Origin: an uncultured Erysipelotrichaceae bacterium
Lineage (GTDB): Bacteria; Bacillota_I; Bacilli_A; Erysipelotrichales; Erysipelotrichaceae
Direction of reading: 5' to 3'
Length of the DNA: 32,000 nucleotides
NCBI GenBank assembly: GCA_942493105.1
Contig: OW818668.1
Location: 240,001-272,000, forward strand
Position numbers and translations under genes: made by a program. The notes beneath the pieces are model-generated. The model was given only the letters and a program-made list of their open reading frames with translations, made no database searches and was not told where the DNA came from. This document shows positions 3,756-16,954 of this stretch, piece after piece. Within the stretch, counting starts at the first letter, position 1. Each line of letters begins with the position of its first letter.

Positions 3756-3764
3756 AACCCCCCC

Positions 3765-5173: not shown

Positions 5174-5310
5174 AAATCCCCTTTGACTGAAATTATACAA
5201 TATTTATTCTTTCAAATTCGTCCTAGTTTTTACTAGTCCGCTTTTATGGTCATCATATAAAGATGCCTTTCCCCTAAATTGTTCCAAAACAGAATTATCT
5301 CTTCAATCTT

Positions 5311-5348
5311 ATTATCCCCATTTTCCCTTATATTCATCCGATAGTCTA
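5311..5348 (-). promoter_or_regulatory. conserved cassette promoter-like module with 9-nt insertion (TAGACT-17-GAAAAT, then GATAAT)
   Basis: Minus strand reads TAGACT atcggatgaatataagg GAAAAT ggg GATAAT, upstream of the lipoprotein gene. Confidence 0.4.
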
Positions 5349-5401
5349 CCTACTATACGTGTATTTTTGGTTCATATTTGAAGTGGCATAGTCCAGTTCT
5401 C

Positions 5402-5517
5402 ATAACGCACCACGGTCTTCGTATTCGCTCCAGGTGGAGCATTCTCACTCTTCTAGTATAAACCGCTTAGGCACACCCAATCGTGTCCCACGGTCGGCTA
5501 TTTAAGACCGTGGTCAG
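5402..5517. repeat. ~115-nt inter-cassette repeat, copy 3 (ICR3), platform-type right end
   Basis: ACCACGGTCTT 5409-5419, AAGACCGTGGT 5504-5514. The 9 nt between CCCACGGT and AAGACCGTGGT read CGGCTATTT instead of GAGTTTGCC, and the right flank is CAGCGTTGTC, as in ICR7. Confidence 0.9.
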
Positions 5518-5669
5518 CGTTGTCTTTTCTCAGTCAAACTGCTCTTGTTATTCAACTTTCATAATCATTCTGTCTCATTCATTCTACCCTATTTTAGAGC
5601 TATATATATCACTAATTTAGTGTTCATTTTCTTATTATTTCGGTTCTCTTTTAAAAAGAAATCTCAAAA
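5518..5669. repeat. ~152-nt conserved platform spacer between ICR3 and att repeat DR1
   Basis: Aligns by eye with 10879-11030 at about 15 mismatches in 152 nt. Non-coding. Contains CTAAAATAGGGTAGAATG (minus strand), which resembles the cassette promoter module. Confidence 0.8.
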
Positions 5670-5760
5670 TCCGTTACACTTTTGTTACACTTGGACAAAG
5701 TGACCTGCAAAAAAGCCTTATAGAATAAGGCTTCGTGAAGTCATGGTGCCATCACCGAGA
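5670..5760. repeat. 91-nt direct repeat DR1: tRNA-Thr 3' fragment plus downstream sequence (att-like)
   Basis: Identical by eye to 11031-11121 and 16807-16897. Ends with TGGTGCCATCACCGAGA, the complement of the last 17 nt of tRNA-Thr. Contains a terminator hairpin copy and GTTACACTTTTGTTACAC (5673-5690). Confidence 0.9.
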
Positions 5761-5972
5761 GCAGAATTTATGCGTATTTTTAGGTGTCAGTTATGATAAA
5801 AAACTTAAAAAACAAGCCTTTTAGTCGATTTTTATCGAATTAAGTTGGATTAAATCGGAATAAAACAGAAAATCCGTTACACATTTGTTACACTTCGGAA
5901 AGACTATTTCAGCCACCATGTTAATCAACAAAAGACTTCACTTTTCTCAACACACCTGAATTTACTCAACAT
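5761..5972. other. non-coding arm region adjacent to DR1, diverged homolog of 11122-11368
   Basis: Shared blocks with 11122-11368: TATTTAGGT, TTATGATAAAAA, a tandem GTTAC repeat, and TTTTCTCAAC. No ORF. Confidence 0.6.
5876..5893. repeat. tandem GTTACAC direct repeat (candidate arm-type recombinase site)
   Basis: GTTACACATTTGTTACAC with 11-nt periodicity. The ~35-nt context AAAATCCGTTACACnTTTGTTACACTT duplicates the left end of DR1, 203 nt away. Confidence 0.55.
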
Positions 5973-6494
5973 TCACTTCTTACTGTTTTTCCATCGTTCT
6001 TCTTCATACCAAGCTTTTCCGGAATATTCGTCCCACTTCGCGATGAATGTCCTATATGATATGTTAAGATTGTAAATTCCAACATGACCATCAAGACAGA
6101 TACTGATTCTATATCTTCCATCATTTGTTTCGGGCAATGCTGATAAATCTTGGATACGACACCAGGATTTCATGGTTTCTTCAAGAATAGTCGCAAATTC
6201 AGAAGGATCTACGTTTCTTGCTGGTTCAGATTTTATTAAGTTCCAGTTTTCGTCAAACTGCGAGTTGGCACAGAATATGATTTCGTCAACTTGAACATCT
6301 TCAAACTCAATGATGCATCCCAGAATACGCATGTCTTCAGTTAATTTATTCTGAGAGTTTTCTGTAGTCGCATTGATATCATCTACGATCCAATGCATTG
6401 TATGTTCCTTAATGGAAAACGACGTGATTTCAGCATCATGGTATGAGAAGTGGCTTATTTCATTAATGGCTTTGTATTTCATGTGATTTATCAC
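5973..6494 (-). CDS. hypothetical cytoplasmic protein
   Basis: 173-aa ORF (GTG 6494 or ATG 6482; the start is uncertain because AGGGAG sits 1 or 13 nt upstream). Acidic, no TM segment, no domain recognised. Confidence 0.6.
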   Translation of the reverse strand: MINHMKYKAINEISHFSYHDAEITSFSIKEHTMHWIVDDINATTENSQNKLTEDMRILGCIIEFEDVQVDEIIFCANSQFDENWNLIKSEPARNVDPSEFATILEETMKSWCRIQDLSALPETNDGRYRISICLDGHVGIYNLNISYRTFIAKWDEYSGKAWYEEERWKNSKK

Positions 6495-6565
6495 ACTCCC
6501 TGTTTGTTCATTCCAATTAAACGAATAGCTTCATGATTAACTATATGCCTAGTTATTATGTTTCT

Positions 6566-6680
6566 AGAACACACCACGGTCTTCGTATTCGCTCCAGGTG
6601 GAGTATTCCCCACAGTCTAGTATGAACGCTTAGGCACATGCAGTCGTGTCCTACGGTGAGTTTGCTAAGACCGTGGTCTG
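6566..6680. repeat. ~115-nt inter-cassette repeat, copy 4 (ICR4)
   Basis: AGAAC 6566-6570, ACCACGGTCTT 6573-6583, AAGACCGTGGT 6667-6677. The most diverged interior of the seven (CACATGCAGTCGTGTCCTACGG). Confidence 0.9.
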
Positions 6681-6732
6681 ATTCAATATTACCGAATACC
6701 AAACATTCCACTATCATAACTGCAGTCATCTA

Positions 6733-7212
6733 TTAATTTACCTTTTCAATAATGGCACCGATCTTACTATGTGGATAATAAATAACTTTAAATCGATCGC
6801 CAATCCTTATTGGATAATAATAAGCCGTAAAACTAAACTCTTCATCTGAAACAACACTTTTTATCACTACTCCTCTTATCTCTATGACATCTTCAGGTCC
6901 AGCACTACTTGGGCTTATTACTACACATTCATCCAAAACATATTCCTTTCTGACAACATTGGGTATATCTGCTAAAACATTAGAGGAAGACAAAACATTA
7001 ACTAGTATTATTATCAAAAAGAAAGAGTAAAGCACAATATGAACTATGGAGTTCATTTTCTCATAGTTAACATTACTCGTAAAGACATTTTGAATTTTGG
7101 TTCTGCTTAAAAATACAATTGCAATAACACATACAATTGGGATAATAAGCACGCCTTGAAGTGAAGCAAAGTATAACTGCGACATTTTGGATAATTGATC
7201 TGAATAATTCAT
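6733..7212 (-). CDS. small two-TM membrane protein
   Basis: 159-aa ORF. Hydrophobic helices GVLIIPIVCVIAIVFL and IVHIVLYSFFLIIILVNVL. Confidence 0.65.
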   Translation of the reverse strand: MNYSDQLSKMSQLYFASLQGVLIIPIVCVIAIVFLSRTKIQNVFTSNVNYEKMNSIVHIVLYSFFLIIILVNVLSSSNVLADIPNVVRKEYVLDECVVISPSSAGPEDVIEIRGVVIKSVVSDEEFSFTAYYYPIRIGDRFKVIYYPHSKIGAIIEKVN

Positions 7213-7274
7213 AATTGTGCCATTACCCCTAACTTGCTACAAATCAGAACTAACTCTTTATTCTTATTAATCTC

Positions 7275-7303
7275 ATTATCCCTTTTATTCATCCGTTAGT
7301 CTA
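7275..7303 (-). promoter_or_regulatory. conserved cassette promoter-like module (TAGACT-17-GATAAT)
   Basis: Minus strand reads TAGACT aacggatgaataaaagg GATAAT, about 60 nt upstream of ATG 7212. Confidence 0.45.
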
Positions 7304-7355
7304 CCTACTATAAGGATATTTAAGGCTCTACTATAAATCGCTGTGGTCCAATCAC

Positions 7356-8018
7356 TCAATTAATTCCATCCTGTAACTCTTGCTTAACTTGCTCATATTG
7401 TTCAATTAGTTTGTCATGCATCTCTGTGTTTCCAAGTTTCTGGTAAATAAGTGATTGGCTATAATAAATAGGTAATTTGAAGATGTTCTTTTGGTTATTT
7501 ACCTCTAGGATATAATCACCTATTTCTATCGCAAACAACAGAGTGTCATTGCTGGCTGAATTATCAAGAGAAATATAGCTTAGAGGTTGAGTGGTATCAA
7601 TGTTTCCAACAAAATCATTAATGCTTTCACGATATACTGTCCTGAATTCTTCTGTATCACCGTTGTCATATAAGGCTTCAATATACTGGATTGTCAAACC
7701 CAAAAGATCATCTTCTTGGAGGATATTTTTTTCTAGCAAAATTGGTGTATATTCGATGGTGATTTTTGTGTTGTTTACTAATAAAGCAGTGAAACACAAT
7801 TCTTTTAAGCTTTCATTACTTCTAAATATCTCGTAGTTTACTTGGTACCAGAAAAGTGATTCCCCCCACTTACCAGCTTTATAATATGAATCACCTATTC
7901 GTTTCGAAATTGAGATAGTACCCGCAACTATTAAACCAATCAATAAAATAAAACTCAATGCTAATTTCTTAAATACTGCAGAGCGTTTTTTTCTTTGGTT
8001 AAATGTCGATTGCGTCAT
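7356..8018 (-). CDS. N-terminally membrane-anchored helical protein, paralog of 999..1628
   Basis: 220-aa ORF with RBS GAGGGGTAGG. One TM helix (LALSFILLIGLIVAGTISI). Similar to the 209-aa ORF along its length. Confidence 0.7.
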   Translation of the reverse strand: MTQSTFNQRKKRSAVFKKLALSFILLIGLIVAGTISISKRIGDSYYKAGKWGESLFWYQVNYEIFRSNESLKELCFTALLVNNTKITIEYTPILLEKNILQEDDLLGLTIQYIEALYDNGDTEEFRTVYRESINDFVGNIDTTQPLSYISLDNSASNDTLLFAIEIGDYILEVNNQKNIFKLPIYYSQSLIYQKLGNTEMHDKLIEQYEQVKQELQDGIN

Positions 8019-8162
8019 ATTACCTACCCCTCAGTGAATTGACCGTCTTTCCTCTAAACTGTATGCATACTCGACTATCCCCCAATGATGCTATTTAAAT
8101 TCATTACTATAAGTATCTGCAATCCACTATCAATCAAGATCAAATAAACTTATGTATGGAAA

Positions 8163-8723
8163 TCAACTTAATATGTTGGTGAAGTAAGTACCTATAGCAG
8201 ATTCGATAGGCATTACGTGAACTAGATTACTTTCGCTATTAACTGGTTTAGGTTTAAATTCAGAGTTCGGTTCACTCATTGATAATGAATAGACTGATAA
8301 TGAATAAAATGCTTGTACTGTCAGATCATCCGGACTCTTTTTGTATGCCTTTTCGATCATTTCATGACCCAGTATAATCAACTCGTCAGGTGAAGTGAAG
8401 TCTTTATTTAGGAGATAATATGGCATTACATACATCATATATCCAAAATAGGTATTGAAATAAATGTTATCCGGAAATTTTTCATTTCCATAGGTATAAA
8501 CTGATTGGAACTTCGATTGAAGCTCATTAAAATCCAAATGTTTAGCATTCTTTAAATGTCCTATACTGTAATTCAATATATACCAAAGTTCCAGTGCATA
8601 GCATAGGTAGTTGTTTAGGTTTCTAGGCTCACTTTTCCATGCCGTATGTAAAAAATCGAGAGCCTTTTCCCACTCATTTTGTGCCTCTAGTTCGACGACC
8701 TTTGGATTATAGATTACTGTCAT
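8163..8723 (-). CDS. hypothetical cytoplasmic helical protein
   Basis: Start moved to ATG 8723 (RBS GGGGGA, 9 nt spacing), giving MTVIYNPKVVELEAQNEWEKALDFLH.... The track's 24-codon N-terminal extension would run into the promoter module. Confidence 0.65.
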   Translation of the reverse strand: MTVIYNPKVVELEAQNEWEKALDFLHTAWKSEPRNLNNYLCYALELWYILNYSIGHLKNAKHLDFNELQSKFQSVYTYGNEKFPDNIYFNTYFGYMMYVMPYYLLNKDFTSPDELIILGHEMIEKAYKKSPDDLTVQAFYSLSVYSLSMSEPNSEFKPKPVNSESNLVHVMPIESAIGTYFTNILS

Positions 8724-8793
8724 ATTTCTTATTCCCCCTAAGTTTACTGAACATATTTCGATGTGACTAAGATATTTTATAATCTCTATTCCC

Positions 8794-8822
8794 ATTATCC
8801 CTTTTATTCATCCTTTAGTCTG
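8794..8822 (-). promoter_or_regulatory. conserved cassette promoter-like module (CAGACT-17-GATAAT)
   Basis: Minus strand reads CAGACT aaaggatgaataaaagg GATAAT, directly after ICR5. Confidence 0.45.
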
Positions 8823-8842
8823 CCTTCTATACATCTAATCCC

Positions 8843-8957
8843 AGAACACACCACGGTCTTCGTATTAGCTCCAGGTGGAGCATTCTCCTCATCCTAATAT
8901 GAACGCTTAGGCACACCCAATCGTGTCCCACGGTGAGTTTGCCAAGACCGTGGTCTG
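8843..8957. repeat. ~115-nt inter-cassette repeat, copy 5 (ICR5)
   Basis: AGAAC 8843-8847, ACCACGGTCTT 8850-8860, AAGACCGTGGT 8944-8954, GCTCCAGGTGGAGC. Confidence 0.9.
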
Positions 8958-9028
8958 TGTCAATGTACTCTACGAAAGAATACTGGACTCTCTAACAGAT
9001 CTACCGCAATATAATATTCCGTTTGCTA

Positions 9029-9814
9029 TTAATTTGCTTTAAATGATTCTGCTAAATTCATTAGTATCGAAGAATCTATGTGAGGTGCAACCTGCAAAAG
9101 CATCTTTCCAAGACTGTCTAACCGAAGTTGAACAATACTGTGCTGTGATTCTATCCCACCTTGACTTGTTTTTAATACTTTGAAAATGCAGCCGTTTCCA
9201 AAAGCCACTTCGTCTATGACCTCTTCAACAACCAATTCTCCAGTTAAAGGGTGGTTGATTATTTTCTTTGAATTTCTAATATCAAATTCGAATTCGACAA
9301 GTTGGACCTCATTACCGCTTGTATAACATCTGATGATTTTAGAGTAACCGGTATCATCAAACTCAATTATCCAATCAATTGGTACCATATATGAACCGAA
9401 ATCATCACTGACTGTCTTGAATGAGTGCTCCAAAAAATAACTTTCTGTATCATCATATTTGAAACGAAATTGGAGTAATATTTCCGGCCTATCTAGTATT
9501 GCGTCAGTGCTTCGAAGTTCGTTGAGCATCATTTTGTTTATCTCATATTTATCTGCTATTTCCAGGGGAGGACTGTACGTCCGATTTGACCAAGAAAAAG
9601 GTATTCGCGGATCTATTATATTTATACCAACTGATTCCAATTCTCCAGCTTCAATTCTCAATGTGAAAACAGACATTTGTTTTAGTAACAAAAATACAAT
9701 ATCTTGTCCTATTTTAGCTGATGCATACACTTCAAATAACATTCCATCATAAGCAGAGTGCCAATTACCAAATTTCTTTTCAAATCTTTCTTTACTAATA
9801 ATCTGAAGGATCAT
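9029..9814 (-). CDS. hypothetical cytoplasmic protein
   Basis: Start moved from GTG 9823 to ATG 9814 (RBS AGGGTGGA, 6 nt spacing). 261 aa, no domain recognised. Confidence 0.65.
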   Translation of the reverse strand: MILQIISKERFEKKFGNWHSAYDGMLFEVYASAKIGQDIVFLLLKQMSVFTLRIEAGELESVGINIIDPRIPFSWSNRTYSPPLEIADKYEINKMMLNELRSTDAILDRPEILLQFRFKYDDTESYFLEHSFKTVSDDFGSYMVPIDWIIEFDDTGYSKIIRCYTSGNEVQLVEFEFDIRNSKKIINHPLTGELVVEEVIDEVAFGNGCIFKVLKTSQGGIESQHSIVQLRLDSLGKMLLQVAPHIDSSILMNLAESFKAN

Positions 9815-9849
9815 TATATCCACCCTAACACTAACATCTTGTTAAAACC

Positions 9850-9878
9850 ATTATACCTTATCGTATCACTCATATTTA
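9850..9878 (-). promoter_or_regulatory. diverged copy of cassette promoter-like module (TAAATA-17-TATAAT)
   Basis: Minus strand reads GTCTAAATATGAGTGATACGATAAGGTATAATG. The -10 is consensus, the -35 is weak, and the CTAA...AAGGnATAATG skeleton of the module is shared. Confidence 0.35.
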
Positions 9879-9924
9879 GACAAAAGATCCATAAAGAAAT
9901 AGAAACAATTTTAAGTTCATTCCT

Positions 9925-10039
9925 AGAACTCACCACGGTCTTCGTATGCGCTCCAGGTGGAGCATTCTCCTCATTCTAGTATTAACGCTTAGGCACACCC
10001 AATCATGTCCCACGGTGAGACTGCCAAGACCGTGGTCTA
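9925..10039. repeat. ~115-nt inter-cassette repeat, copy 6 (ICR6)
   Basis: AGAAC 9925-9929, ACCACGGTCTT 9932-9942, AAGACCGTGGT 10026-10036. Confidence 0.9.
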
Positions 10040-10123
10040 AGTCAATATTATGATCTCTACTGTTACTACTTATGCTTATGGACTTTGGATTTCTCAACTC
10101 ATCACTACTCTCTCAAACAAATT

Positions 10124-10675
10124 TCACTCAACTTTTAACCATTCGATGATGAATTGATAAGCTTCAAAATCATCTTGTTTCCAGGGTGTACACGAGTACA
10201 AGATTTTAGTATCATTCAATATTGTCTTTCGCATAGCAAGAACCTCGTATGAGTCACTTGTTGCATTTACCAAAGATTTCGCCACCATAATGAAATGCGT
10301 ATATTGTATTCTAACCAATCCATTTTGTGAACATAAGTCGAATTCAATTATCGGTTTTTCTTGGGTCAGTTCAACCTTAACTCCTTGGTACTTTTTCGGA
10401 TCTCCAACTTGGGTGATAGTTCCCTTACCTCTAACACATGAAAATCCTGTTTGAAAATCTTGACTTGATTTCTTACCAAAAAGCGATATCTTTACATGAT
10501 ATGTGATTCTTGGTTGGACACTCAGAATATCAAAAGACAACGCATTCTCACCGAAATCCGGGTTATAGGCTGGATTGGATTGTAGCCACCACTTTTCCTC
10601 GGGATTCAGTTTCTCGCCTTTTCTAATTCTAGTTAATAGTTCACTACAATAAGCAACATTTTGATGGTAGTTCAT
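10124..10675 (-). CDS. hypothetical cytoplasmic protein
   Basis: The track ORF starts at TTG 10735. ATG 10675 (MNYHQNVAYCSELL...) is preferred, with a weak GGGAAA RBS. No domain recognised. Confidence 0.6.
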   Translation of the reverse strand: MNYHQNVAYCSELLTRIRKGEKLNPEEKWWLQSNPAYNPDFGENALSFDILSVQPRITYHVKISLFGKKSSQDFQTGFSCVRGKGTITQVGDPKKYQGVKVELTQEKPIIEFDLCSQNGLVRIQYTHFIMVAKSLVNATSDSYEVLAMRKTILNDTKILYSCTPWKQDDFEAYQFIIEWLKVE

Positions 10676-10762
10676 TTTATTTTCCCATTTAGTTAATATA
10701 GAAATAATTGCTGTTATTTTAATTGTAGCATCCAAATAATGTGTTATGAAATCGTTTATTCT

Positions 10763-10878
10763 CAGAACTCACCATGGTCTTCGTAGTCGCTCCATGTGGA
10801 GCATTCCTGCTCATCTAGTATCAACATATTAGCCCATGTAATCGTGTCCCACGGTCGTCCGTTTAAGACCGTGGTCAG
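10763..10878. repeat. ~115-nt inter-cassette repeat, copy 7 (ICR7), platform-type right end
   Basis: ACCATGGTCTT 10770-10780 (one C>T), AAGACCGTGGT 10865-10875. The inter-motif 9 nt read CGTCCGTTT and the right flank is CAGCGTTGTC, as in ICR3. Confidence 0.9.
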
Positions 10879-11030
10879 CGTTGTCTTTTCTCAGTCAAAC
10901 AACCTACATTATTCGACTTTCATCATCATTCTGTCTCATTCATTCTACCTTATTTTAGAGCTACAAACATCACTAATTTAGTGTTCATTTTCTCATTATT
11001 TCGGTTCTCTTTTAAAAAGAAATCTCAAAT
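10879..11030. repeat. ~152-nt conserved platform spacer between ICR7 and att repeat DR2
   Basis: Second copy of 5518-5669 (about 15 mismatches by eye). Non-coding. The 61-aa plus-strand track ORF here is rejected. Confidence 0.8.
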
Positions 11031-11121
11031 TCCGTTACACTTTTGTTACACTTGGACAAAGTGACCTGCAAAAAAGCCTTATAGAATAAGGCTTCGTGAA
11101 GTCATGGTGCCATCACCGAGA
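11031..11121. repeat. 91-nt direct repeat DR2: tRNA-Thr 3' fragment plus downstream sequence (att-like)
   Basis: Identical by eye to DR1 and DR3. tRNA 3' fragment at 11105-11121. GTTACACTTTTGTTACAC at 11034-11051. Confidence 0.9.
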
Positions 11122-11368
11122 AACAAGGTATTTAGGTTAATCGGTTCATTTTAAGATAATATATGCTTATTTATGATAAAAATGACGATTTTAGAGCTAT
11201 ATAAATAATTAGATATTGATTTCTATGAGAATTATGTTACGATTTTGTTACGATTTTTTACAGGTCTTTTTATGCATTGTATTAGACTCGTTAGATTCTA
11301 AATTGGTTATTTGCACTACAATGACATATTCCAAATGGACTTTGTTTTCTCAACTTACCCCAAGTACT
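11122..11368. other. non-coding arm region adjacent to DR2, diverged homolog of 5761-5972
   Basis: Shared sequence blocks in the same order as 5761-5972. No ORF. Confidence 0.55.
11236..11254. repeat. tandem GTTACGA direct repeat (variant arm-type site)
   Basis: GTTACGATTTTGTTACGAT. It has the same 11-nt periodicity and the same position relative to the tRNA fragment as 5876-5893. Confidence 0.5.
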
Positions 11369-11767
11369 TCATAGATGAGGTTTAATGATATTGCTAAAAT
11401 ATTCCTTTTTGCCTGAAAGAAAATCTTCATATAAATTCTGTTTTTCATCAATAAATACTATACTATCTTGGAGCAGCTCAATTTTCTTCTGTAGATCCTC
11501 TTTTTGTTTTTGAAGCAATTGCTTTCGAAGCTGAATAGAAGGCTTACCTAATAAACACAGATCTACATATTGCTTCATTTGTTCAATAGTCATTCCACAT
11601 CGTTTTAAGCATAACAAGCTTTTGATCCAGGCAACATCATGATCATCGAAGATTCTGTAGTCGTTTTGATCTCTTTTCACATTCGGAATTAATCCTTGAT
11701 TGCAGTAATACTTCAATGTTTGATAACTTAAGCCAACCTTTTGGCCAGTTTCTTTCATGGAATACAT
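11369..11767 (-). CDS. MerR-family transcriptional regulator
   Basis: 132 aa. N-terminal winged HTH (ETGQKVGLSYQTLKYYCNQGLIP), a coiled-coil dimerisation helix, and cysteines in the C-terminal half. Divergent from an AKR gene across a 19-bp-spacer promoter. Confidence 0.85.
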   Translation of the reverse strand: MYSMKETGQKVGLSYQTLKYYCNQGLIPNVKRDQNDYRIFDDHDVAWIKSLLCLKRCGMTIEQMKQYVDLCLLGKPSIQLRKQLLQKQKEDLQKKIELLQDSIVFIDEKQNLYEDFLSGKKEYFSNIIKPHL

Positions 11768-11786
11768 CTTTTTTCTCCAATGGGTG

Positions 11787-11817
11787 TTGACCGATAGTAA
11801 CTATCGGCATCTATAAT
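11787..11817 (+). promoter_or_regulatory. MerR-type promoter/operator (TTGACC-19 bp-TATAAT)
   Basis: -35 at 11787-11792, -10 at 11812-11817, 19-bp spacer. The spacer contains the perfect palindrome CCGATAG-TAA-CTATCGG (11791-11807). Confidence 0.75.
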
Positions 11818-11856
11818 GGTATTATACATCAAATGTAACATTTGAAAAGGAGAGAG

Positions 11857-12711
11857 ATGGAATATACAACATTAAGAAATGGACTAGAAATACCGATGTT
11901 GGGATTTGGAGTCTTTCAGATGTCCAATGAGGAAACTGAGAAGTGTGTTCTTGAAGCCATTGAAGCGGGTTATCGATTGATTGATACCGCTCAGAGTTAT
12001 CGCAACGAAGATGGGGTTGGTAACGCCATCTTGAAATGCGGACTGTCTAGGGAAGAACTCATTATCTCAACGAAAGTTTGGTATGATAACTATGGATACG
12101 AGAAAACCAAAGCATCTTTGATTGAATCTTTGAAGAAACTGAAAACAGATTATATTGATATTGTTTTACTTCATCAGCCATTCAATGATACCTATGGTGC
12201 TTATCGTGCTTTGGAAGAATTCTACAAAGAAGGGAAAATCAAAGCGATTGGGGTCAGTAATTTCTATCCTGATCGTTTAAGTGATATTTGTGCCTTTACT
12301 GAGATTGCCCCGCTCATCAATCAAGTTGAAGTCAATGTTTTTAATCAACAAATTTCAGCTCAAGCAAACATGATTAAGAATGGTGTACAAATACAAGCAT
12401 GGGCACCTTTTGGAGAAGGCCGCAATAATATGTTCACAAATCCCACGCTTAAGGAAATTGGTGAAAGACATCATAAGTCGATTGCTCAAATTATCTTAAG
12501 ATGGTTACTTCAAAGAAAGGTCATTTCATTAGCTAAGACGGTCAATAAGGAAAGAATGATCGAAAATCTGAATATCTTTGATTTCGATCTTTCTGTTGAA
12601 GATATGGTGCTTATAGAGAGCTTGGATACCAAAGAGAGCTTGTTCTTTAATCATCAAAGTGTTGAAGCGGTTGAACGATTTGTTGAATTGGCTAAAAAAA
12701 GACGTGATTAA
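11857..12711 (+). CDS. aldo/keto reductase (DkgA/YtbE-like, ~284 aa)
   Basis: Start moved to ATG 11857 after AAAGGAGAGAG. AKR hallmarks include LIDTAQSYRNE, ISTKVW, DIVLLHQP and VSNF. Confidence 0.9.
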   Translation: MEYTTLRNGLEIPMLGFGVFQMSNEETEKCVLEAIEAGYRLIDTAQSYRNEDGVGNAILKCGLSREELIISTKVWYDNYGYEKTKASLIESLKKLKTDYIDIVLLHQPFNDTYGAYRALEEFYKEGKIKAIGVSNFYPDRLSDICAFTEIAPLINQVEVNVFNQQISAQANMIKNGVQIQAWAPFGEGRNNMFTNPTLKEIGERHHKSIAQIILRWLLQRKVISLAKTVNKERMIENLNIFDFDLSVEDMVLIESLDTKESLFFNHQSVEAVERFVELAKKRRD

Positions 12712-12735
12712 CATAAATCGTATTTAATACTTAAC

Positions 12736-12759
12736 AAGAAGCCTTGAAAAGGGCTTCTT
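12736..12759 (+). terminator. hairpin after AKR gene
   Basis: AAGAAGCC-ttgaaaag-GGCTTCTT followed by ATTTAT. The T-tract is weak. Confidence 0.5.
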
Positions 12760-12802
12760 ATTTATAATCCAATAATCATGAATTGAAATTTCTCATATAA
12801 AA

Positions 12803-12825
12803 AAAGGCTTTATAAACAAGCCTTT
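12803..12825 (-). terminator. Rho-independent terminator of 12879..13874
   Basis: AAAGGCTT-tataaac-AAGCCTTT. On the minus strand it is followed by a run of T. Confidence 0.65.
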
Positions 12826-12878
12826 GTAGAAACAACAGTAGATAAGCATATGTCCTTATATTCGACGCTTCCACATTC

Positions 12879-13874
12879 TTAATCAACAGGATTAGGCAAA
12901 GCTCCTACTATACTGTGTGAAGTATAAGGTTCTTCCAAGTATTTGATTTCTTCTTGAGTAAGTTTGATATTCATAGCAGCAACGGCTTCATCCACGTGTG
13001 ATATTTTGGTAGCCCCAATGATGGGTGCTACAACCGGTTTTTTGTTCCATAGCCAAGCCAATGCAATCTGTGATCTTAACACTTGATGTTTTGTTGCGAG
13101 TTCTCCCACTCGATCAAGGATTTCACGATCCATTTCTTCGGCTTTGTCATATTTTGATTTAGCGATTTGATCTGTATCACTTCGAAGACTTTTTTCACCA
13201 GGATTGCGTGATAAACGACCTGAAGCCAAAGGACTGTAAGGAGTCGAAGCTACACCCGTATCAATACAATATGGATTCATTTCTCGCTCTTCTTCACGAT
13301 AAATCAAATTATAGTGATTTTGCATCGATATGAATTTAGTCCAACCATGTTTTTCGGCTACGTTTTGTGCCTTTTGAAATTGCCAAGCATACATAGCACT
13401 GGCTCCAATATATCTTACCTTTCCGCTTTTGATCAAATCATGCAAAGCCTCCATTGTTTCTTCGATTGGGGTATTATAATCCCAACGGTGAATGATGTAT
13501 AAATCGATGTAATCTACGCCTAATCGTTTTAAACTTTGTTCACATTCGTAAAAGATTTCTTTTCTTGATAAGCCGCCCCCATTTGGAACCTTTCTCATCG
13601 TCTGATTTACTTTTGTAGCAATAACAATTTCTTCACGTTTAGCGAAATCTTTAAGTGCTCTGCCTAAATAGAGTTCGCTTTCGCCCAAAGAATAGACATT
13701 GGCTGTATCAAAAAAGTTGATACCTAAATCTAAAGCGTGTTTGATGACTTGACGACTTTCTTCTTCATTAATGACCCATAAGTGAGATCTCTTGGCAGGA
13801 TCACCAAAACCCATGCAGCCTAAAGCAATCTTTGATACTTCTAATCCGGAATTTCCTAATCGTGTATATTCCAT
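12879..13874 (-). CDS. aldo/keto reductase (Tas/YajO-like, 331 aa)
   Basis: MEYTRLGNSGLEVSKIALGCMGFG, FFDTANVYS, DLYIIHRWD. Full-length AKR fold pattern. Confidence 0.9.
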   Translation of the reverse strand: MEYTRLGNSGLEVSKIALGCMGFGDPAKRSHLWVINEEESRQVIKHALDLGINFFDTANVYSLGESELYLGRALKDFAKREEIVIATKVNQTMRKVPNGGGLSRKEIFYECEQSLKRLGVDYIDLYIIHRWDYNTPIEETMEALHDLIKSGKVRYIGASAMYAWQFQKAQNVAEKHGWTKFISMQNHYNLIYREEEREMNPYCIDTGVASTPYSPLASGRLSRNPGEKSLRSDTDQIAKSKYDKAEEMDREILDRVGELATKHQVLRSQIALAWLWNKKPVVAPIIGATKISHVDEAVAAMNIKLTQEEIKYLEEPYTSHSIVGALPNPVD

Positions 13875-13897
13875 AGGTTATCCTCTCTTTCACTTTA

Positions 13898-13928
13898 AGC
13901 ATAAACCTTGGAGTTGACTCTAAGTCAA
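13898..13928 (-). promoter_or_regulatory. MerR-type promoter/operator (TTGACT-19 bp-TATGCT) for 12879..13874
   Basis: On the minus strand, -35 is at 13928-13923 and -10 at 13903-13898, with a 19-bp spacer. The spacer carries the operator CTTGGAGT-tg-ACTCTAAG (13907-13924). Confidence 0.7.
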
Positions 13929-13955
13929 GCAATAATCATTTATTTTCATAAAGAC

Positions 13956-13986
13956 TTGACTTGGAGTTAACTCTAAGTGTTATTGT
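13956..13986 (+). promoter_or_regulatory. MerR-type promoter/operator (TTGACT-19 bp-TATTGT) for flavodoxin-merR operon
   Basis: -35 at 13956-13961, -10 at 13981-13986, 19-bp spacer. Same operator arms, CTTGGAGT-ta-ACTCTAAG. Confidence 0.7.
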
Positions 13987-14089
13987 TGTAATGGAAATGT
14001 ATATTGAGGTTTCTTGAGATCCAACATATAGAACCTATATTAATAAGTATTGTATTAACACATTCCTCGATCATTCAAAGGAGAAAGCA

Positions 14090-14617
14090 ATGACAAAGCA
14101 TAAAACACTCATCGTCTATACTTCACGTAAAGGACAGAATTATTTCGAAGGGAAAATCCATGATCTTAAAATTGGAAATACGGCTCAAGTTGCACAATGG
14201 ATCAGTGAGACATGTGGCATTGATTTGTTTGAGATAGAGACCATAAAAGATTATCCACTAGGTTATGAAGAATGCACCGAGGTATCAAAGCATGAGAAAC
14301 AAACACATGCTCGTCCTCAACTCAAAAGAAACATCGATATTTCATCCTATGATACAATCATCCTTGGATATCCCAATTGGTGGTCAACCGCACCGATGAG
14401 TATTTTCACTTTTTTAGAATCACAAGATTTTTCTTCAAAAACCATTATCCCCTTCTGTACGCATGAAGGAACAGAATTAGGACAAAGTGAAAACGACATC
14501 AAAAAGAGTTGTCCAAATTCAATTGTGCTCAAAGGATTGGCTATACAAGGATCTAAGATCAATGAATCAAAAATGATTATTCGAGAATGGCTTAAGTCAA
14601 ACCAACTTATAGATTAA
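14090..14617 (+). CDS. flavodoxin-family protein
   Basis: 175 aa with RBS AAAGGAGAAAG. N-terminal TLIVYTSRKGQN FMN-loop-like motif and GYPNWW motif. Confidence 0.8.
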   Translation: MTKHKTLIVYTSRKGQNYFEGKIHDLKIGNTAQVAQWISETCGIDLFEIETIKDYPLGYEECTEVSKHEKQTHARPQLKRNIDISSYDTIILGYPNWWSTAPMSIFTFLESQDFSSKTIIPFCTHEGTELGQSENDIKKSCPNSIVLKGLAIQGSKINESKMIIREWLKSNQLID

Positions 14618-14642
14618 TTTTCAAACCTCAAGGAGCATGCTT

Positions 14643-15044
14643 ATGACCATTTCTGAAGTATGTAAGAAGTATGATTTAAGTGCAGATACATTAAGATATT
14701 ACGAGAGAATTGGCTTATTGCCTAATGTGACACGCTCTCAGAGTGGAATTCGTCATTATTCTGAAGAAGATTGTCGCTGGGTAGAGTTTATCAAATGTAT
14801 GCGTAGTGCAGGTCTTACCATTGAGTTTTTACATGAATATATCACATTATTCAGACAAGGCAATGACACATTTGAAGCACGCAGAGCTTTGCTGATTGAA
14901 CAGAAATCTTTATTGGTTGATAAGATGGCAGAGATGCAAAAGACACTTGATCGACTTGAAAGAAAGATCAATGTATATGATTCGGTTGTTAAAGACAGAG
15001 AAGAGAAGTTAAAATCTAAAAGTGATCAAGAACTATTAGGTTAA
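14643..15044 (+). CDS. MerR-family transcriptional regulator
   Basis: Start at ATG 14643 (AAGGAG, 7 nt spacing). HTH ISEVCKKYDLSADTLRYYERIGLLP, conserved Cys residues, and a C-terminal coiled coil. Confidence 0.85.
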   Translation: MTISEVCKKYDLSADTLRYYERIGLLPNVTRSQSGIRHYSEEDCRWVEFIKCMRSAGLTIEFLHEYITLFRQGNDTFEARRALLIEQKSLLVDKMAEMQKTLDRLERKINVYDSVVKDREEKLKSKSDQELLG

Positions 15045-15175
15045 TCTTTTATACACTTTCGTTTATATCGGTTATTATGTATCGAGTTTTAAGACAAAGA
15101 CGGCTTTTGATTCAAAGAATCAAATTCCCCAATTAATACTCGACACGCCAGGAACACAGTACATACAGATAATAA

Positions 15176-15196
15176 AAAGGCTTAAAACAAGCCTTT
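15176..15196 (-). terminator. Rho-independent terminator of 15246..15806
   Basis: AAAGGCTT-aaaac-AAGCCTTT. The minus strand continues TTTTTATT. Confidence 0.6.
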
Positions 15197-15245
15197 AGTT
15201 GATTCTTTAGAATCTAATCTGACTAAATCAAAGTTAAACAGGAAA

Positions 15246-15806
15246 TTATTTTGTAAGCGAGAAACCACCAGTCCATCCAATCTTTTCACGAATAGCCAGA
15301 GTTATTTGTAAGAAACCCAATGCTTCTAGTTCACGAGCACGTTTTAAAGATCCAGCATCAACAACAACCAAACCACTTCCATCTAAAGCAGAGGTAAGTG
15401 TAGCTTTTGCTTCTTCATCACTAGAGGCCAGTAAAACACTTGTCTCACCATCTCCGGCTAGAGTAGAAGCGAAATTCGTATTAAATGCTTTAATGACTTT
15501 TGCTGTTAAAACAGTGTTTGCAATCACTTCGCTGGCTGAACTGTCTGCAGAAACAAGCAGACCATCCATGGTAGCGAAATTTACAGGATTTGTAATATCT
15601 ACGATAATCTTACCTTCTAATTCTTTCTTATTTGCTTCAAGGATTGATGCTACTGCGCCATATGGAACAGCCAAAACAACGATATCCCCCAAGACTCCAA
15701 CTTCGTCTTTGGATCCTAACAGTGACACTGTGTTTCCAGCTTTCGTAAAACGTTCAGCGATGACTTTAGCCATATTGCCTTTCCCAAAGATTGTAATTTT
15801 TTTCAT
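15246..15806 (-). CDS. NAD(P)-binding oxidoreductase (NADPH-dependent F420 reductase NpdG-like fold)
   Basis: 186 aa. N-terminal Rossmann motif KITIFGKGNMAKVIA. The size and pattern match small NpdG/ProC-like reductases that are often paired with HxlR regulators. Confidence 0.75.
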   Translation of the reverse strand: MKKITIFGKGNMAKVIAERFTKAGNTVSLLGSKDEVGVLGDIVVLAVPYGAVASILEANKKELEGKIIVDITNPVNFATMDGLLVSADSSASEVIANTVLTAKVIKAFNTNFASTLAGDGETSVLLASSDEEAKATLTSALDGSGLVVVDAGSLKRARELEALGFLQITLAIREKIGWTGGFSLTK

Positions 15807-15905
15807 ATTTTATTCCTTCTTTCTTTGATGCTTGTGTTTTTATGTGCATCTGCTATAATTATATCAGTACTATTACATATGTATAGTATGCACTTTTTTG
15901 TTATA

Positions 15906-15925
15906 TAGTATCTTTATAGATACTA
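15906..15925. promoter_or_regulatory. perfect 8-4-8 palindrome, candidate HxlR operator
   Basis: TAGTATCT-TTAT-AGATACTA, in the divergent intergenic region between 15246..15806 and the HxlR gene. Confidence 0.6.
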
Positions 15926-15950
15926 TATATTTGTGCCAAAGGAGAATATT

Positions 15951-16280
15951 GTGGAAATGACACATATTATTGAATGTCCAGTTGAAGTGACATTAAGTCT
16001 ATTATCAAGTAAATGGAAGATTTTGATTATCCGTGAATTGTTGACAGGAACAAAGCGTTTCAGTCAAATCAAACGCACATTGCCTGGTGTGACTCAAAAA
16101 ATGCTTACCCAAAGCTTAAGGGGACTAGAGGAAGATGGCTTGATCGACCGAAAAGTTTACCCTGTTGTACCACCTAAAGTAGAGTACAGTTTATCAAAAT
16201 TAGGATGGGATTTAGCCCCGGTTATAGATACGATGAGAAAATTTGGCACTCATTATCAAAGTATCGAAAAACGTTCATAA
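15951..16280 (+). CDS. HxlR-family (winged-helix) transcriptional regulator
   Basis: CPVEVTLSLLSSKWKILIIRELL..RFSQIKRTLPGVTQKMLTQSLRGLEEDGLI is the typical HxlR signature. Start is GTG 15951 (6 nt after AAGGAGAA) or ATG 15957. Confidence 0.85.
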   Translation: MEMTHIIECPVEVTLSLLSSKWKILIIRELLTGTKRFSQIKRTLPGVTQKMLTQSLRGLEEDGLIDRKVYPVVPPKVEYSLSKLGWDLAPVIDTMRKFGTHYQSIEKRS

Positions 16281-16538
16281 CAAAATTATCTCATCTTGAT
16301 AAATTTTCGAAATTCGATTATTCATTCTTCTATTAAAGGGGATTTTATACTTGTTTATTACGATTCTAGATAAATCAATCAATATCCATTACACTTCGGT
16401 GCGATCAAATTGTACTCTATGATAACTAGTCAAAGAACTGTTGTTTTTCTCATCACAGCACATGACATATTGTCATCCTTTTGTACTGATACGACTTTAA
16501 CATCGTGACTCACCAAAAGTCGACCTATTCCATAATCT

Positions 16539-16706
16539 TTACTTCTGATTTTCTGAGAGTTTAACCAATGTGTAGCACAAGTAATTTATACCCATAAAGA
16601 CTATTGAACCACCCATAACTTCTGGGATTGGCATAATCCAACCTGTAATAAACACACTCACAAACCATACCGCAAAACCAATTAGAAACACTTTAATTGC
16701 TTTCAT
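16539..16706 (-). CDS. small (55 aa) two-TM membrane peptide
   Basis: Start at ATG 16706 (GGGGGA, 7 nt spacing), giving MKAIKVFLIGFAVWFVSVFITGW.... Short, so uncertain. Confidence 0.45.
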   Translation of the reverse strand: MKAIKVFLIGFAVWFVSVFITGWIMPIPEVMGGSIVFMGINYLCYTLVKLSENQK

Positions 16707-16806
16707 AATCATATCCCCCTGTTCATTCAAATTGTACCGTTTATCCTCCATGTTTACTATACAAAAAATCACTTTTATTCGCTTTTTTTAATTCGTTTTT
16801 TATAAA

Positions 16807-16897
16807 TCCGTTACACTTTTGTTACACTTGGACAAAGTGACCTGCAAAAAAGCCTTATAGAATAAGGCTTCGTGAAGTCATGGTGCCATCACCGAGA
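16807..16897. repeat. 91-nt direct repeat DR3, overlapping the 3' end of the intact tRNA-Thr (att-like)
   Basis: Identical by eye to DR1 and DR2. Positions 16881-16897 are the last 17 nt of the tRNA. GTTACACTTTTGTTACAC at 16810-16827. Confidence 0.9.
16845..16870 (-). terminator. Rho-independent terminator downstream of tRNA-Thr
   Basis: Minus strand reads AAGCCTTAT-tct-ATAAGGCTT followed by TTTTTT. Copies inside DR1 (about 5708-5733) and DR2 (about 11069-11094). Confidence 0.7.
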
Positions 16898-16954
16898 ATC
16901 GAACTCAGAACTGAGCATTACCATTGCTCCGTTTTACCACTGAACTATGATGGC
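16881..16954 (-). tRNA. tRNA-Thr (anticodon GGU), CCA encoded
   Basis: Minus strand reads GCCATCATAGTTCAGTGGTAAAACGGAGCAATGGTAATGCTCAGTTCTGAGTTCGATTCTCGGTGATGGCACCA. 7-bp acceptor stem, anticodon stem GAGCA/TGCTC with loop AT-GGT-AA, T-loop TTCGATT. Confidence 0.9.

What the first reader, a model, noticed from the sequence alone, without database searches (positions are those of the whole stretch)
5670..16954. Three identical 91-nt copies of the tRNA-Thr 3' end plus downstream region: tandem accretion of integrase-less islands
The intact tRNA-Thr(GGU) lies at 16881-16954 on the minus strand. Its last 17 nt, together with the next 74 nt (terminator hairpin and a GTTACAC tandem repeat), recur at 11031-11121 and 5670-5760. 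By eye the three 91-nt copies are identical. Identity stops exactly inside the T-arm (ACCGAGA|), a classic integrase crossover location. The sequence just outside DR1 and DR2 (the 152-nt spacers) is only about 90 percent identical, and the arm regions 5761-5972 and 11122-11368 are more diverged. This suggests three related elements integrated successively into the regenerated tRNA end. The two intervals (about 5.4 and 5.8 kb) contain no integrase, excisionase or transfer genes. They therefore look like cis-mobilisable passengers that depend on a recombinase encoded elsewhere, possibly past window position 1.
Basis: partly seen in the sequence, partly recalled or inferred. Interest (0 to 1): 0.7.

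Follow-up and report, generated by a model that had tools for sequence, protein, structure and literature searches.

The report
Integrase-less islands stacked at tRNA-Thr
Downstream of a threonine tRNA gene, this Erysipelotrichaceae genome has stacked at least three small foreign DNA islands, each ending in a copy of the tRNA tail with matching recombination-site arms but no recombinase gene, and two of them are arrays of unknown genes separated by a conserved 120-base element.

Summary
A 94-nt direct repeat, made of the last 17 nt of tRNA-Thr(GGU) plus 77 nt downstream, occurs three times. Its 91-nt core is identical in all three copies.

Each internal repeat is an attP-like junction. It has a double GTGTAAC-N4-GTGTAAC motif 131 nt upstream of the 17-nt core and another 72 nt downstream. 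The same geometry recurs in about 15 related Erysipelotrichaceae contigs and at a second gene, tRNA-Thr(CGU), where the core matches that tRNA instead. Distal ends lack the downstream arm and carry decayed cores, as attR sites would.

Island content differs between relatives. It includes a full RHS toxin island, a tiny HAD-hydrolase island and cassette arrays. Eight complete att-bounded islands contain no recombinase, and no recombinase-bearing partner or empty site was found.

Islands to the left of the redox island (11122-16803) are low-GC arrays of ORFan genes separated by a conserved, array-restricted ~120-nt element at which cassette homology breaks.

Best reading: tandem site-specific accretion of cis-mobilisable islands served by a recombinase acting in trans. 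This is a new variant of a known kind. Trans-mobilisation and an immunity function for the cargo are inferred, not shown.

The parts
16881..16954 (-). Intact tRNA-Thr(GGU). Its last 17 nt (16881-16897) form the att core.
   Evidence: ARAGORN. Rfam tRNA, 60.7 bits.
16804..16897 (-). DR3, the attL-like site. It comprises the tRNA 3' core (16881-16897), the terminator hairpin (16846-16870) and the P' arm with GTGTAAC-N4-GTGTAAC (16810-16827).
11122..16803 (-). Island B (5.7 kb). Genes: small membrane ORF (16539-16772), HxlR (15933-16280), NADPH/F420-type oxidoreductase (15246-15806), MerR (14637-15044), flavodoxin (14090-14617), two aldo/keto reductases (12879-13874, 11842-12711) and MerR (11369-11767). 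No recombinase.
   Evidence: Pfam. GC 34-36% against 40-42% in the core flank.
11122..11368 (-). P arm of the DR2 junction. The variant double motif TCGTAAC-AAAA-TCGTAAC lies at 11236-11251, 130 nt upstream of the core. The arm starts with GTTGAGAAAA.
11028..11121 (-). DR2, an internal attP-like junction. Core at 11105-11121; P' motif at 11034-11051.
5761..11027 (-). Island A (5.3 kb). It is a co-oriented array of six ORFan genes (10124-10735, 9029-9823, 8163-8795, 7356-8018, 6733-7212, 5973-6494) with four inter-cassette elements. No recombinase.
   Evidence: ORFs. No Pfam, NCBIfam, PADLOC or PDB sequence match.
5761..5972 (-). P arm of the DR1 junction. GTGTAAC-AAAT-GTGTAAC lies at 5876-5893, 131 nt upstream of the core. 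The arm is 77-80% identical to the P arms in L003 and L037.
5667..5760 (-). DR1, an internal attP-like junction. Core at 5744-5760; P' motif at 5673-5690.
1..5666 (-). A third island, cut by the window edge. It is an array with a lipoprotein gene (4637-5200), a Zn-ribbon protein (3765-4283), a Zn-ribbon/TM/4xBig_2 protein (1827-3755), a TM+TPR-like protein (999-1628) and a partial ORF (2-727).
5479..5666 (-). Extension of the P' arm beyond the shared 94 nt. It is about 91% identical to 10840-11027. Its first ~45-70 nt are also conserved upstream of the RHS gene in L037.
   Evidence: (D3).
10840..11027 (-). Extension of the P' arm after DR2, the partner of 5479-5666.
   Evidence: (D3).
852..972 (-). 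Inter-cassette ~120-nt element, copy 1. The other copies are at 1646-1766, 5398-5519, 6562-6682, 8839-8959, 9921-10041 and 10760-10880, all on the minus strand.
   Evidence: D1/D2; alignments; nhmmer.
1646..1766 (-). Inter-cassette element, copy 2.
5398..5519 (-). Inter-cassette element, copy 3. It is the first after DR1 and belongs to a subtype with an altered first hairpin.
6562..6682 (-). Inter-cassette element, copy 4.
8839..8959 (-). Inter-cassette element, copy 5.
9921..10041 (-). Inter-cassette element, copy 6.
10760..10880 (-). Inter-cassette element, copy 7. It is the first after DR2 and has the same subtype as copy 3.
7223..7328 (-). Repeated promoter-like element (TAGACT-17 nt-GATAAT) just upstream of genes. 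Other copies are at 790-845, 4366-4471, 5268-5373 and 8776-8831.
   Evidence: D5/D6. Promoter scan hits at 7303-7275 and 4446-4418.

Best explanation
The segment from window position 1 to 16897 is a hotspot where small foreign islands have been inserted one after another into the 3' end of tRNA-Thr(GGU). Insertion was by site-specific recombination, most likely by an arm-binding tyrosine integrase.

Each island carries an attP of roughly 330-380 bp with four parts in order:
- a P arm that starts with GTTGAGAAAA and has a GTGTAAC-N4-GTGTAAC pair 131 nt upstream of the core;
- a core that copies the last 17 nt of the tRNA;
- the tRNA's terminator;
- a P' arm with a second GTGTAAC pair 72 nt downstream of the core start.

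Integration rebuilds the tRNA and gives an attL of tRNA plus P'. It pushes older islands outwards. Each junction between islands then looks like an attP (P, core, P'). The distal end is an attR (P, core, chromosomal flank).

The islands are 1.4-7 kb and encode no recombinase. They must therefore have been moved by an enzyme encoded elsewhere (inferred), and may still be. In that sense they are cis-mobilisable passengers.

Cargo is modular. In the window it comprises a redox/electrophile-response island and two arrays of co-oriented ORFan cassettes. In relatives, the same kind of island carries a complete RHS toxin. The arrays are therefore probably toxin-immunity or accessory cassettes (inferred, moderate confidence).

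Within arrays, cassettes are reshuffled by recombination at a conserved ~120-nt inter-cassette element. The mechanism of that recombination is unknown.
For: Shown in the window:
- Three direct repeats identical at 93-94 of 94 positions.
- Identity ends at the T-loop/T-stem boundary.
- The double motif occurs 4 times against 0.04 expected.

Shown across genomes:
- The motif pairs sit at -131/-132 and +72 from the core in every array. This holds for the Thr-GGU type (window, L003, L004, L017, L037) and the Thr-CGU type (L002/L006, L007, L012, L015). The core always matches the resident tRNA.
- Distal sites have a P arm and a core but no P'. The cores are mutated: L031 has TCTCGGTATTGGCACCA, and L015 and L019 have GGCACTA.
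- Content downstream of the same tRNA differs between relatives that share the core flank. L004 has different cassettes and no island B. L031 has a 70-aa ORF plus a HAD hydrolase. L037 has a 1936-aa RHS toxin island followed by an array.
- Eight complete att-bounded islands have no recombinase: window A and B, the L037 RHS island, the L003 terminal island, the L006 island, two islands in L015 and the L031 island.
- Islands have 34-36% GC against 40-42% in the flank.
- Repeat copies are more alike within a genome than between genomes.

Cassettes:
- Cassettes are shared between arrays in different orders, and between Thr-GGU and Thr-CGU arrays.
- Homology breaks inside or at the edge of the inter-cassette element.

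RHS link:
- L003 and L037 show direct adjacency to an RHS toxin.
- One array gene family also occurs in RHS-linked arrays in other bacteria, L040 and L041.
Against: - No integrase with this specificity was found in the window, in about 15 related contexts, in IMG/VR, or in the phage and plasmid collections.
- No truly empty attB and no excised circle was seen. L031, which first looked empty, has an IS110-family element inserted in the repeat and a small island behind it.
- All arrays but one are cut by contig or window ends, so a recombinase inside an unseen part of an array cannot be excluded.
- The window's own assembly could have mis-ordered islands across the 94-282-nt repeats.
- The immunity function rests on context only. 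Window cassettes have no family, PDB or defence-system match. No orphan rhs-CT motif occurs in the window. The one confidently modelled array family has no known fold match.
Confidence: 0.65

Rival explanations
1. Fossil accretion. The islands were once inserted by integrase-bearing elements whose integrase genes have since been lost. The att sites are now inert scars, and present-day variation comes only from homologous recombination and deletion.
For: - No recombinase in any island or flank.
- Distal att cores and motifs are visibly decayed in L031, L015, L019 and L017.
- L016 shows a deletion between the two GTGTAAC pairs.
Against: - Internal P arms, cores and P' arms keep exact spacing and sequence across genomes whose core genes are only about 79% identical.
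- Repeats are 87-94/94 identical within genomes.
- Closely related tRNA/DR regions (L004 and L017, 96% identical) are followed by different first cassettes.
- Inert scars would be expected to decay as the distal copies do.
Confidence: 0.2
2. Local duplication. The DR1 and DR2 regions (282 nt at 94%) and their first inter-cassette elements arose by unequal crossing-over or segmental duplication within one array. They did not arise by separate integration events.
For: - DR1 and DR2 share a further 188 nt and the same subtype of first inter-cassette element.
- Within-genome similarity of repeats exceeds between-genome similarity.
Against: - The sequences on the tRNA side of DR1 and DR2 (P arms) are different types, GTGTAAC against TCGTAAC.
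- The genes after DR1 and DR2 are unrelated.
- The same P-core-P' design exists at another tRNA with a matching core.
Confidence: 0.08
3. Integron-like platform. The main mobile unit is the single cassette, inserted and excised at the ~120-nt inter-cassette element by an unlinked recombinase. The tRNA-tail repeats mark only a higher-order packaging of arrays.
For: - Twenty-six distinct copies of the element at 89% identity, all co-oriented and found only in arrays.
- Tight cassette boundaries. The 5' half of the element travels with the upstream gene and the 3' half with the downstream gene.
- The element carries an 11-bp terminal inverted repeat and an inner site-like arrangement, CCACGGTCTT-6 nt-(C/G)ACCGTGG, whose central bases vary.
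Against: - No recombinase.
- No covariation or structural signal beyond sequence conservation.
- Breakpoints are not at one fixed position. In the L003/L017 pair the break is at the 5' edge, in others it is in the middle. That pattern fits homologous exchange as well.
- Some cassettes are joined without the element.
Confidence: 0.3
4. Assembly artefact. The repeats caused a short-read or MAG assembler to chain unrelated fragments after the tRNA.
For: - At least nine independent metagenome assemblies break at this tRNA, which shows the region is hard to assemble.
- The origin of the window is unknown.
Against: The same tandem layout, with different flanks at each repeat, appears in independent assemblies from four sources and in contigs up to 150 kb.
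Confidence: 0.04

Closest known systems
CIMEs (cis-mobilisable elements) and site-specific accretion with ICESt1/ICESt3 in Streptococcus thermophilus. The concept is reviewed in PMC5704250; details are from my own knowledge.
   Same: Islands are flanked by att sites, lack recombination and transfer genes, and are stacked in tandem at one integration site. Mobility is presumed to come from a related element's integrase.
   Different: No cognate ICE or IME was found here. The target is the tRNA-Thr 3' end rather than fda. The islands are much smaller (1.4-7 kb), recur at two tRNA genes, and carry cassette arrays.
Tycheposon-built genomic islands of Prochlorococcus (bioRxiv 10.1101/2020.12.28.424599)
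   Same: Hypervariable islands lie next to tRNA genes and are built by successive integrations separated by partial tRNA copies. New arrivals push older ones outwards, and cargo modules are adaptive.
   Different: Tycheposons carry their own tyrosine recombinase, and integrase-free pieces are described there as remnants. Here all eight complete islands lack a recombinase yet keep well-conserved arm sites. The host is a different phylum.
rAID-1 recombinase-associated immunity arrays of Bacteroidales (bioRxiv 10.1101/471110)
   Same: Long co-oriented, low-GC arrays of small genes carry repetitive intergenic sequences 'reminiscent of integrons' and are linked to interbacterial toxin defence.
   Different: rAID-1 is defined by a 5' XerD-like recombinase gene, which is absent here. 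The repeat sequences are unrelated. An immunity function is not demonstrated here. The host is Bacillota and the toxin context is RHS rather than T6SS.
Integrons (own knowledge)
   Same: Arrays of co-oriented cassettes are separated by a structured repeat with terminal inverted repeats. Each cassette appears to carry half of the repeat at each end. The first cassette sits next to a dedicated site.
   Different: There is no intI, attI or Pc. The element does not have the RYYYAAC/GTTRRRY cores. It is conserved in sequence (89%) rather than only in structure. Many cassettes have their own promoter-like element.
Rhs/CDI orphan toxin-immunity arrays (PMC3150448, PMC3482391)
   Same: In L037/L003 and L041, variable small-gene arrays lie downstream of a full-length RHS toxin.
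   Different: Window arrays have no rhs-CT fragments with the RYYDP..GRF motif. Exchange uses a non-coding element, not the conserved rhs coding core. The whole toxin gene is itself an att-bounded island.
pdif modules of Acinetobacter plasmids (own knowledge)
   Same: Small recombinase-less gene modules are bounded by recombination sites that a host-encoded enzyme serves.
   Different: The sites here are tRNA-derived with arm-type motifs, not 28-bp XerC/D dif-like sites. The location is chromosomal.

Membership tests
tRNA-integrated genomic island (integrase-mediated) | Lies next to an intact tRNA gene, with a direct repeat of the tRNA 3' end at the far boundary. | tested here: met
tRNA-integrated genomic island (integrase-mediated) | Integrase gene inside the island, usually next to an att end. 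| tested here: not met
   No Phage_integrase, Resolvase or Recombinase Pfam family in the window or in eight complete islands.
tRNA-integrated genomic island (integrase-mediated) | Atypical base composition and variable presence among relatives. | tested here: met
   GC 34-36% against 40-42%. Different content in L004, L017, L031 and L037.
tRNA-integrated genomic island (integrase-mediated) | An empty attB allele exists in relatives. | tested here: inconclusive
   No empty site was found. L031 has the smallest occupancy, a 1.4-kb island plus an IS110-family insertion. Many contigs end at the tRNA.
CIME / accretion partner of an ICE or IME | att sites on both sides and no recombination or conjugation module. 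| tested here: met
CIME / accretion partner of an ICE or IME | A cognate integrase-encoding element uses the same att site and can co-excise. | tested here: not met
   None found in any locus, in IMG/VR, or in the phage and plasmid collections. The search space was limited.
Integron | intI next to attI and a Pc promoter. | tested here: not met
   No recombinase in the window or related loci.
Integron | attC sites with R''/L''-L'/R' cores (RYYYAAC...GTTRRRY), conserved in structure rather than in sequence. | tested here: not met
   The element ends are ACCACGGTCTT / AAGACCGTGGT. The copies are 89% identical in sequence. There is no compensatory variation.
rAID-1 | [quoted passage not shown] | tested here: not met
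   Definition. Absent.
rAID-1 | Co-oriented low-GC array with repetitive intergenic sequences. | tested here: met
rAID-1 | Genes homologous to known immunity genes. | tested here: inconclusive
   Only DUF2691, DUF3825 and a sub-threshold Imm11 hit, all in relatives. Window genes have no hits.
Rhs orphan toxin/immunity array | Lies downstream of a full-length rhs gene. | tested here: inconclusive
   True in L037/L003. Not seen within the window, whose array runs off the left edge.
Rhs orphan toxin/immunity array | Orphan rhs-CT fragments that keep the conserved core motif. | tested here: not met
   The motif is found in L003, L037, L040 and L041 but not in the window.
MITE / IS-derived repeat (for the 120-nt element) | Terminal inverted repeats, target-site duplication, dispersed in either orientation. 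| tested here: not met
   An 11-bp inverted repeat is present. However, all copies are co-oriented and restricted to arrays, with none in 15 kb of core sequence or in island B. No duplication is evident.
Described RNA family (for the 120-nt element) | Match to an Rfam covariance model. | tested here: not met
   No hit at the gathering threshold or at E<=5.

The most novel reading that the evidence does not exclude
Erysipelotrichaceae possess a two-tier gene-capture system served entirely in trans. An unlinked arm-binding recombinase loads and unloads 1-7 kb recombinase-free micro-islands at tRNA-Thr genes through a conserved P-core-P' site. Inside those islands, a second, site-specific reaction at the ~120-nt inter-cassette element shuffles single gene cassettes, including RHS toxin-defence genes. 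This would be a Bacillota counterpart of integrons and rAID with a previously undescribed recombination site.
Probability: 0.25. Interest if true: 0.8.

Novelty: new variant of a known kind. Interest (0 to 1): 0.6.

Why it matters
Tandem islands at tRNA genes and integrase-less passengers are both known. This case is unusually clean in three respects:
- The att design is compact, well conserved and has fixed geometry.
- The same design is used at two tRNA-Thr genes in several uncultured Erysipelotrichaceae.
- It serves only recombinase-free islands. One carries a whole RHS toxin and others carry cassette arrays with their own conserved junction element.

If the sites are active, gene flow in this lineage, including interbacterial toxin and probable immunity genes, depends on one unlinked enzyme. 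That enzyme could be identified and tested.

Cassette arrays with integron-like logic would then exist in Bacillota, where integrons have not been reported (own knowledge).

The sites also give a simple marker, GTGTAAC-N4-GTGTAAC at -131 and +72 of a tRNA-Thr tail, for finding such islands in metagenomes.

Tried and rejected
- Exact-protein look-ups of window core proteins found nothing on record, so the window's own genome is not in the collection.
- The 120-nt element has no Rfam family.
- RNA structure for the element: the predicted fold is stable (z about -4). However, 26 copies give no covariation beyond shuffles. The RNA reading is therefore neither supported nor excluded.
- The sigma-70 scan finds no promoter in the element. 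It does find one in the second repeat family.
- Searches for a recombinase-bearing partner gave nothing useful:
  - The element pattern has no match in IMG/VR.
  - The P' motif in IMG/VR returned only clusters of GTGTAAC in phage intergenic regions next to primase-polymerase genes, with no tRNA core. I judged these coincidental.
  - The composite arm-core pattern returned only chance hits inside coding regions.
  - Two P-arm patterns returned nothing.
  - BLAST of arm plus DR against phages and plasmids found nothing.
- L031 first looked like an empty attB. It proved to be an IS110-family insertion inside the repeat with a small island behind it.
- The 387-aa ORF at the end of the L010 array was considered as a hidden recombinase. 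It has no Pfam hit and reads like a hydrolase, so I rejected it.
- Function of array genes: Pfam, NCBIfam, PADLOC and PDB sequence searches were all empty. An AlphaFold model of one array family was confident (pLDDT 91) but had no PDB fold match.
- A literature search for DUF2691 was uninformative.

Full report
**Observation.**
The window holds one tRNA gene, tRNA-Thr(GGT), at 16881-16954 on the minus strand. A 94-nt direct repeat occurs at 5667-5760, 11028-11121 and 16804-16897. On the gene strand the repeat reads as follows:
- TCTCGGTGATGGCACCA, the last 17 nt of the tRNA, starting at the T-loop/T-stem boundary;
- a terminator hairpin;
- GTGTAAC-AAAA-GTGTAAC.

DR1 and DR2 stay 94% identical over 282 nt. 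The sequences on their tRNA side are diverged. No recombinase, excisionase or transfer gene is detectable anywhere in the 32 kb. GC content is 34-36% from position 1 to about 17000 and 40-42% in the metabolic flank to the right.

**What lies between the repeats.**
Island B (11122-16803) encodes two MerR regulators, two aldo/keto reductases, a flavodoxin, an NADPH/F420-type oxidoreductase, an HxlR regulator and a small membrane protein. This looks like a redox or electrophile-response set.

Island A (5761-11027) and the region left of DR1 (1-5666) are arrays of minus-strand genes. These genes have no Pfam, NCBIfam, PADLOC or PDB sequence match. The exceptions are zinc-ribbon, Big_2 and lipoprotein signals.

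The arrays carry two repeat families:
- A ~120-nt element in seven copies (D1/D2).
- A promoter-like element, TAGACT-17 nt-GATAAT, in five copies (D5/D6).

**Relatives.**
A scan of species-representative genomes with the 120-nt element found five stretches, all in Erysipelotrichaceae MAGs. A metagenome scan found seven more. Protein-based look-ups added syntenic loci.

Loci at tRNA-Thr(GGT):
- L004 shares the window's right flank (Maf, TetR, hydrolase and others; 79% nucleotide identity) and the tRNA. It has a 91%-identical repeat but different array genes and no island B.
- L017 has a tRNA/repeat region 96% identical to that of L004, yet a different first cassette.
- L031 has a membrane-protein ortholog at 84% identity. 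It carries an IS110-family element inserted inside the repeat. Behind that is a 1.4-kb island with an ortholog of the window's 16539-16772 ORF plus a HAD hydrolase. Then come a P arm and a decayed core, followed by an unrelated operon.
- L037/L038 carry a 1936-aa RHS toxin and a membrane ORF directly after the tRNA and repeat. These are followed by a P arm, a second repeat and a cassette array. L003 is the same kind of locus.

Loci at tRNA-Thr(CGT): L002/L006, L007, L012 and L015 show the same layout downstream of this second gene.

**The att design.**
In every case a GTGTAAC-N4-GTGTAAC pair lies 131-132 nt upstream of the 17-nt core and another lies 72 nt downstream of the core start. The core copies the resident tRNA. 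It is TCTCGGTGATGGCACCA at Thr-GGT sites and TCCTGTTGTCGGCACCA at Thr-CGT sites.

P arms begin with a conserved GTTGAGAAAA about 190-230 nt upstream of the core. P' conservation continues 45-70 nt beyond the motif. The conserved module is therefore about 330-380 bp, the size range of arm-type tyrosine-integrase attP sites (own knowledge).

Three kinds of site occur:
- tRNA plus P', which is attL-like.
- P, core and P' between islands, which looks like an attP.
- P, core and an unrelated flank at the far end, which is attR-like. These have mutated cores in L031, L015 and L019.

This is the pattern expected from repeated integration into a tRNA 3' end. It is hard to obtain by duplication alone. 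Repeat copies are more similar within a genome (87-94/94) than between genomes, which suggests continuing exchange at these sites (inference).

**No recombinase.**
Eight islands are complete between two att sites: window A and B, the L037 RHS island, the L003 terminal island, one in L006, two in L015 and one in L031. None encodes a recognisable recombinase, nor do the flanks seen at attL or attR ends.

Searches for an integrase-bearing partner in IMG/VR, phage and plasmid collections failed. The enzyme is therefore unknown. That it acts in trans is an inference. Most arrays are truncated by contig ends, and at least nine assemblies break at this tRNA.

**Cassettes and the 120-nt element.**
Twenty-six distinct copies of the element average 89% identity. 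All are co-oriented with the genes and all lie in arrays.

The element folds into an 11-bp closing stem (ACCACGGTCTT/AAGACCGTGGT) with two inner hairpins. Variation gives no compensatory signal, so the conservation is at the sequence level.

Cassettes are shared between arrays in different orders and between the two tRNA sites:
- L004/L006 at 89% identity.
- L003/L017 at 96%.
- L016/L003 at 96%.
- Window/L002 at 95%.
- Window/L015 at 81%.

High-identity blocks end at or inside the element. In the window/L002 and L016/L003 pairs, the 5' half of the element goes with the upstream gene and the 3' half with the downstream gene. In L003/L017 the break is at the 5' edge of the element and just after the promoter-like element. 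This resembles integron cassettes, but it is also compatible with homologous exchange between conserved linkers.

**Cargo function.**
The link to polymorphic toxins rests on context:
- An RHS toxin island sits at the same site in L037/L003.
- One array family (found in L019, L005, L013 and L018) has homologs in co-oriented arrays downstream of a 2481-aa RHS toxin (L041). It also occurs in an array with orphan rhs-CT fragments (L040).
- Relatives carry DUF2691, DUF3825 and a weak Imm11 hit.

The window arrays contain no rhs-CT motif. The one family modelled with confidence (pLDDT 91) has no PDB fold match. An immunity function is a reasonable guess, not a result.

**Comparison with known systems.**
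This works like accretion of cis-mobilisable elements next to ICEs (PMC5704250). It also works like the tRNA-side islands built by tycheposons, where elements are separated by partial tRNAs and older ones are pushed outwards. The arrays resemble rAID-1 immunity arrays with integron-like intergenic repeats.

It fails the membership tests that require a linked recombinase (integron, rAID-1, classical island) or a known partner element (CIME). I rate it a new variant of a known kind.

**Verdict.**
- The accretion reading is well supported.
- Trans-mobilisation and immunity function are inferred.
- The cassette-junction element is the most novel and least understood part.

Noticed in passing
window 852-972, 1646-1766, 5398-5519, 6562-6682, 8839-8959, 9921-10041, 10760-10880 (minus strand): A ~120-nt conserved inter-cassette element restricted to the arrays. 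It has an 11-bp terminal inverted repeat, three copies of the motif ACCACGGT/ACCGTGG and the palindrome GCTCCAnnTGGAGC. There is no Rfam match and no covariation. Cassette homology breaks inside it.
   Followed up: partly
window ~870-905 and the equivalent position in each element copy: The best-conserved part of the element reads as an 11-codon ORF, ATG CTC CAC CTG GAG CGA ATA CGA AGA CCG TGG (MLHLERIRRPW). The ATG is lost in 3 of 26 copies and the Shine-Dalgarno spacing is poor, so it is probably not a real uORF.
   Followed up: partly
window 790-845, 4366-4471, 5268-5373, 7223-7328, 8776-8831: A second repeated element with a sigma-70-like TAGACT-17 nt-GATAAT lies just upstream of array genes. 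It lies downstream of the 120-nt element where both are present.
   Followed up: partly
L031 10840-12578: An IS110-family element (DEDD_Tnp_IS110 + Transposase_20) is inserted precisely in the T-run after the tRNA terminator, inside the direct repeat. It splits the core and terminator from the P' arm. Several sister contigs end inside it.
   Followed up: partly
L003 6697-6760 and L015 3340-3270 (minus strand): Two distal att sites belong to different tRNA-Thr types. Both leave the P' sequence inside the terminator loop, and both share the next 12 nt, GAGTCTGYTCAT. Unexplained.
   Followed up: no
L032, L033, L034, L036, L043-L048 (contig ends): At least nine independent metagenome assemblies end within about 40-170 nt after tRNA-Thr(GGT) or its neighbouring membrane-protein gene. 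This is as expected for a repeat or a strain-variable region immediately downstream.
   Followed up: no
window 11369-15044: Island B contains two MerR regulators (11369-11767, 14637-15044) and two aldo/keto reductases (11842-12711, 12879-13874). These are paralogous pairs in a roughly mirror-image arrangement around a flavodoxin gene.
   Followed up: no
L020, L025, L027 (IMG/VR contigs): Dense clusters of GTGTAAC/GTTACAC repeats lie in phage intergenic regions between a ~180-aa gene and a 1318-aa primase-polymerase-like gene. They have no tRNA core and no relation to the islands. They are probably an origin or operator array of an unrelated phage group.
   Followed up: partly
L041 3869-10539; L040 5503-9416: RHS-linked arrays in other bacteria have their own unrelated intergenic repeats. 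L041 has a 72-nt repeat in four copies. L040 has orphan rhs-CT stubs that keep the RYYDP..RF motif. The general design therefore recurs with different junction sequences.
   Followed up: no
P0025-P0048 (family of L019 12363-12866): This ~160-aa array protein family has invariant W, PEDICF and HE motifs. The AlphaFold model is confident (pLDDT 91, pTM 0.87), with no PDB fold match at E<=0.001 and no Pfam family.
   Followed up: yes
L035 2447-2535; L017 ~900-960; window 11236-11251: A second flavour of the arm motif, TCGTAAC-AAAA-TCGTAAC, occurs with a different terminator (AAGGCCTTAGAAATAAGGCTT). It is found at Thr-GGT sites and in the window's island B P arm. GTAAC-N6-GTAAC may therefore be the essential part, or two recombinase specificities may coexist.
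   Followed up: no
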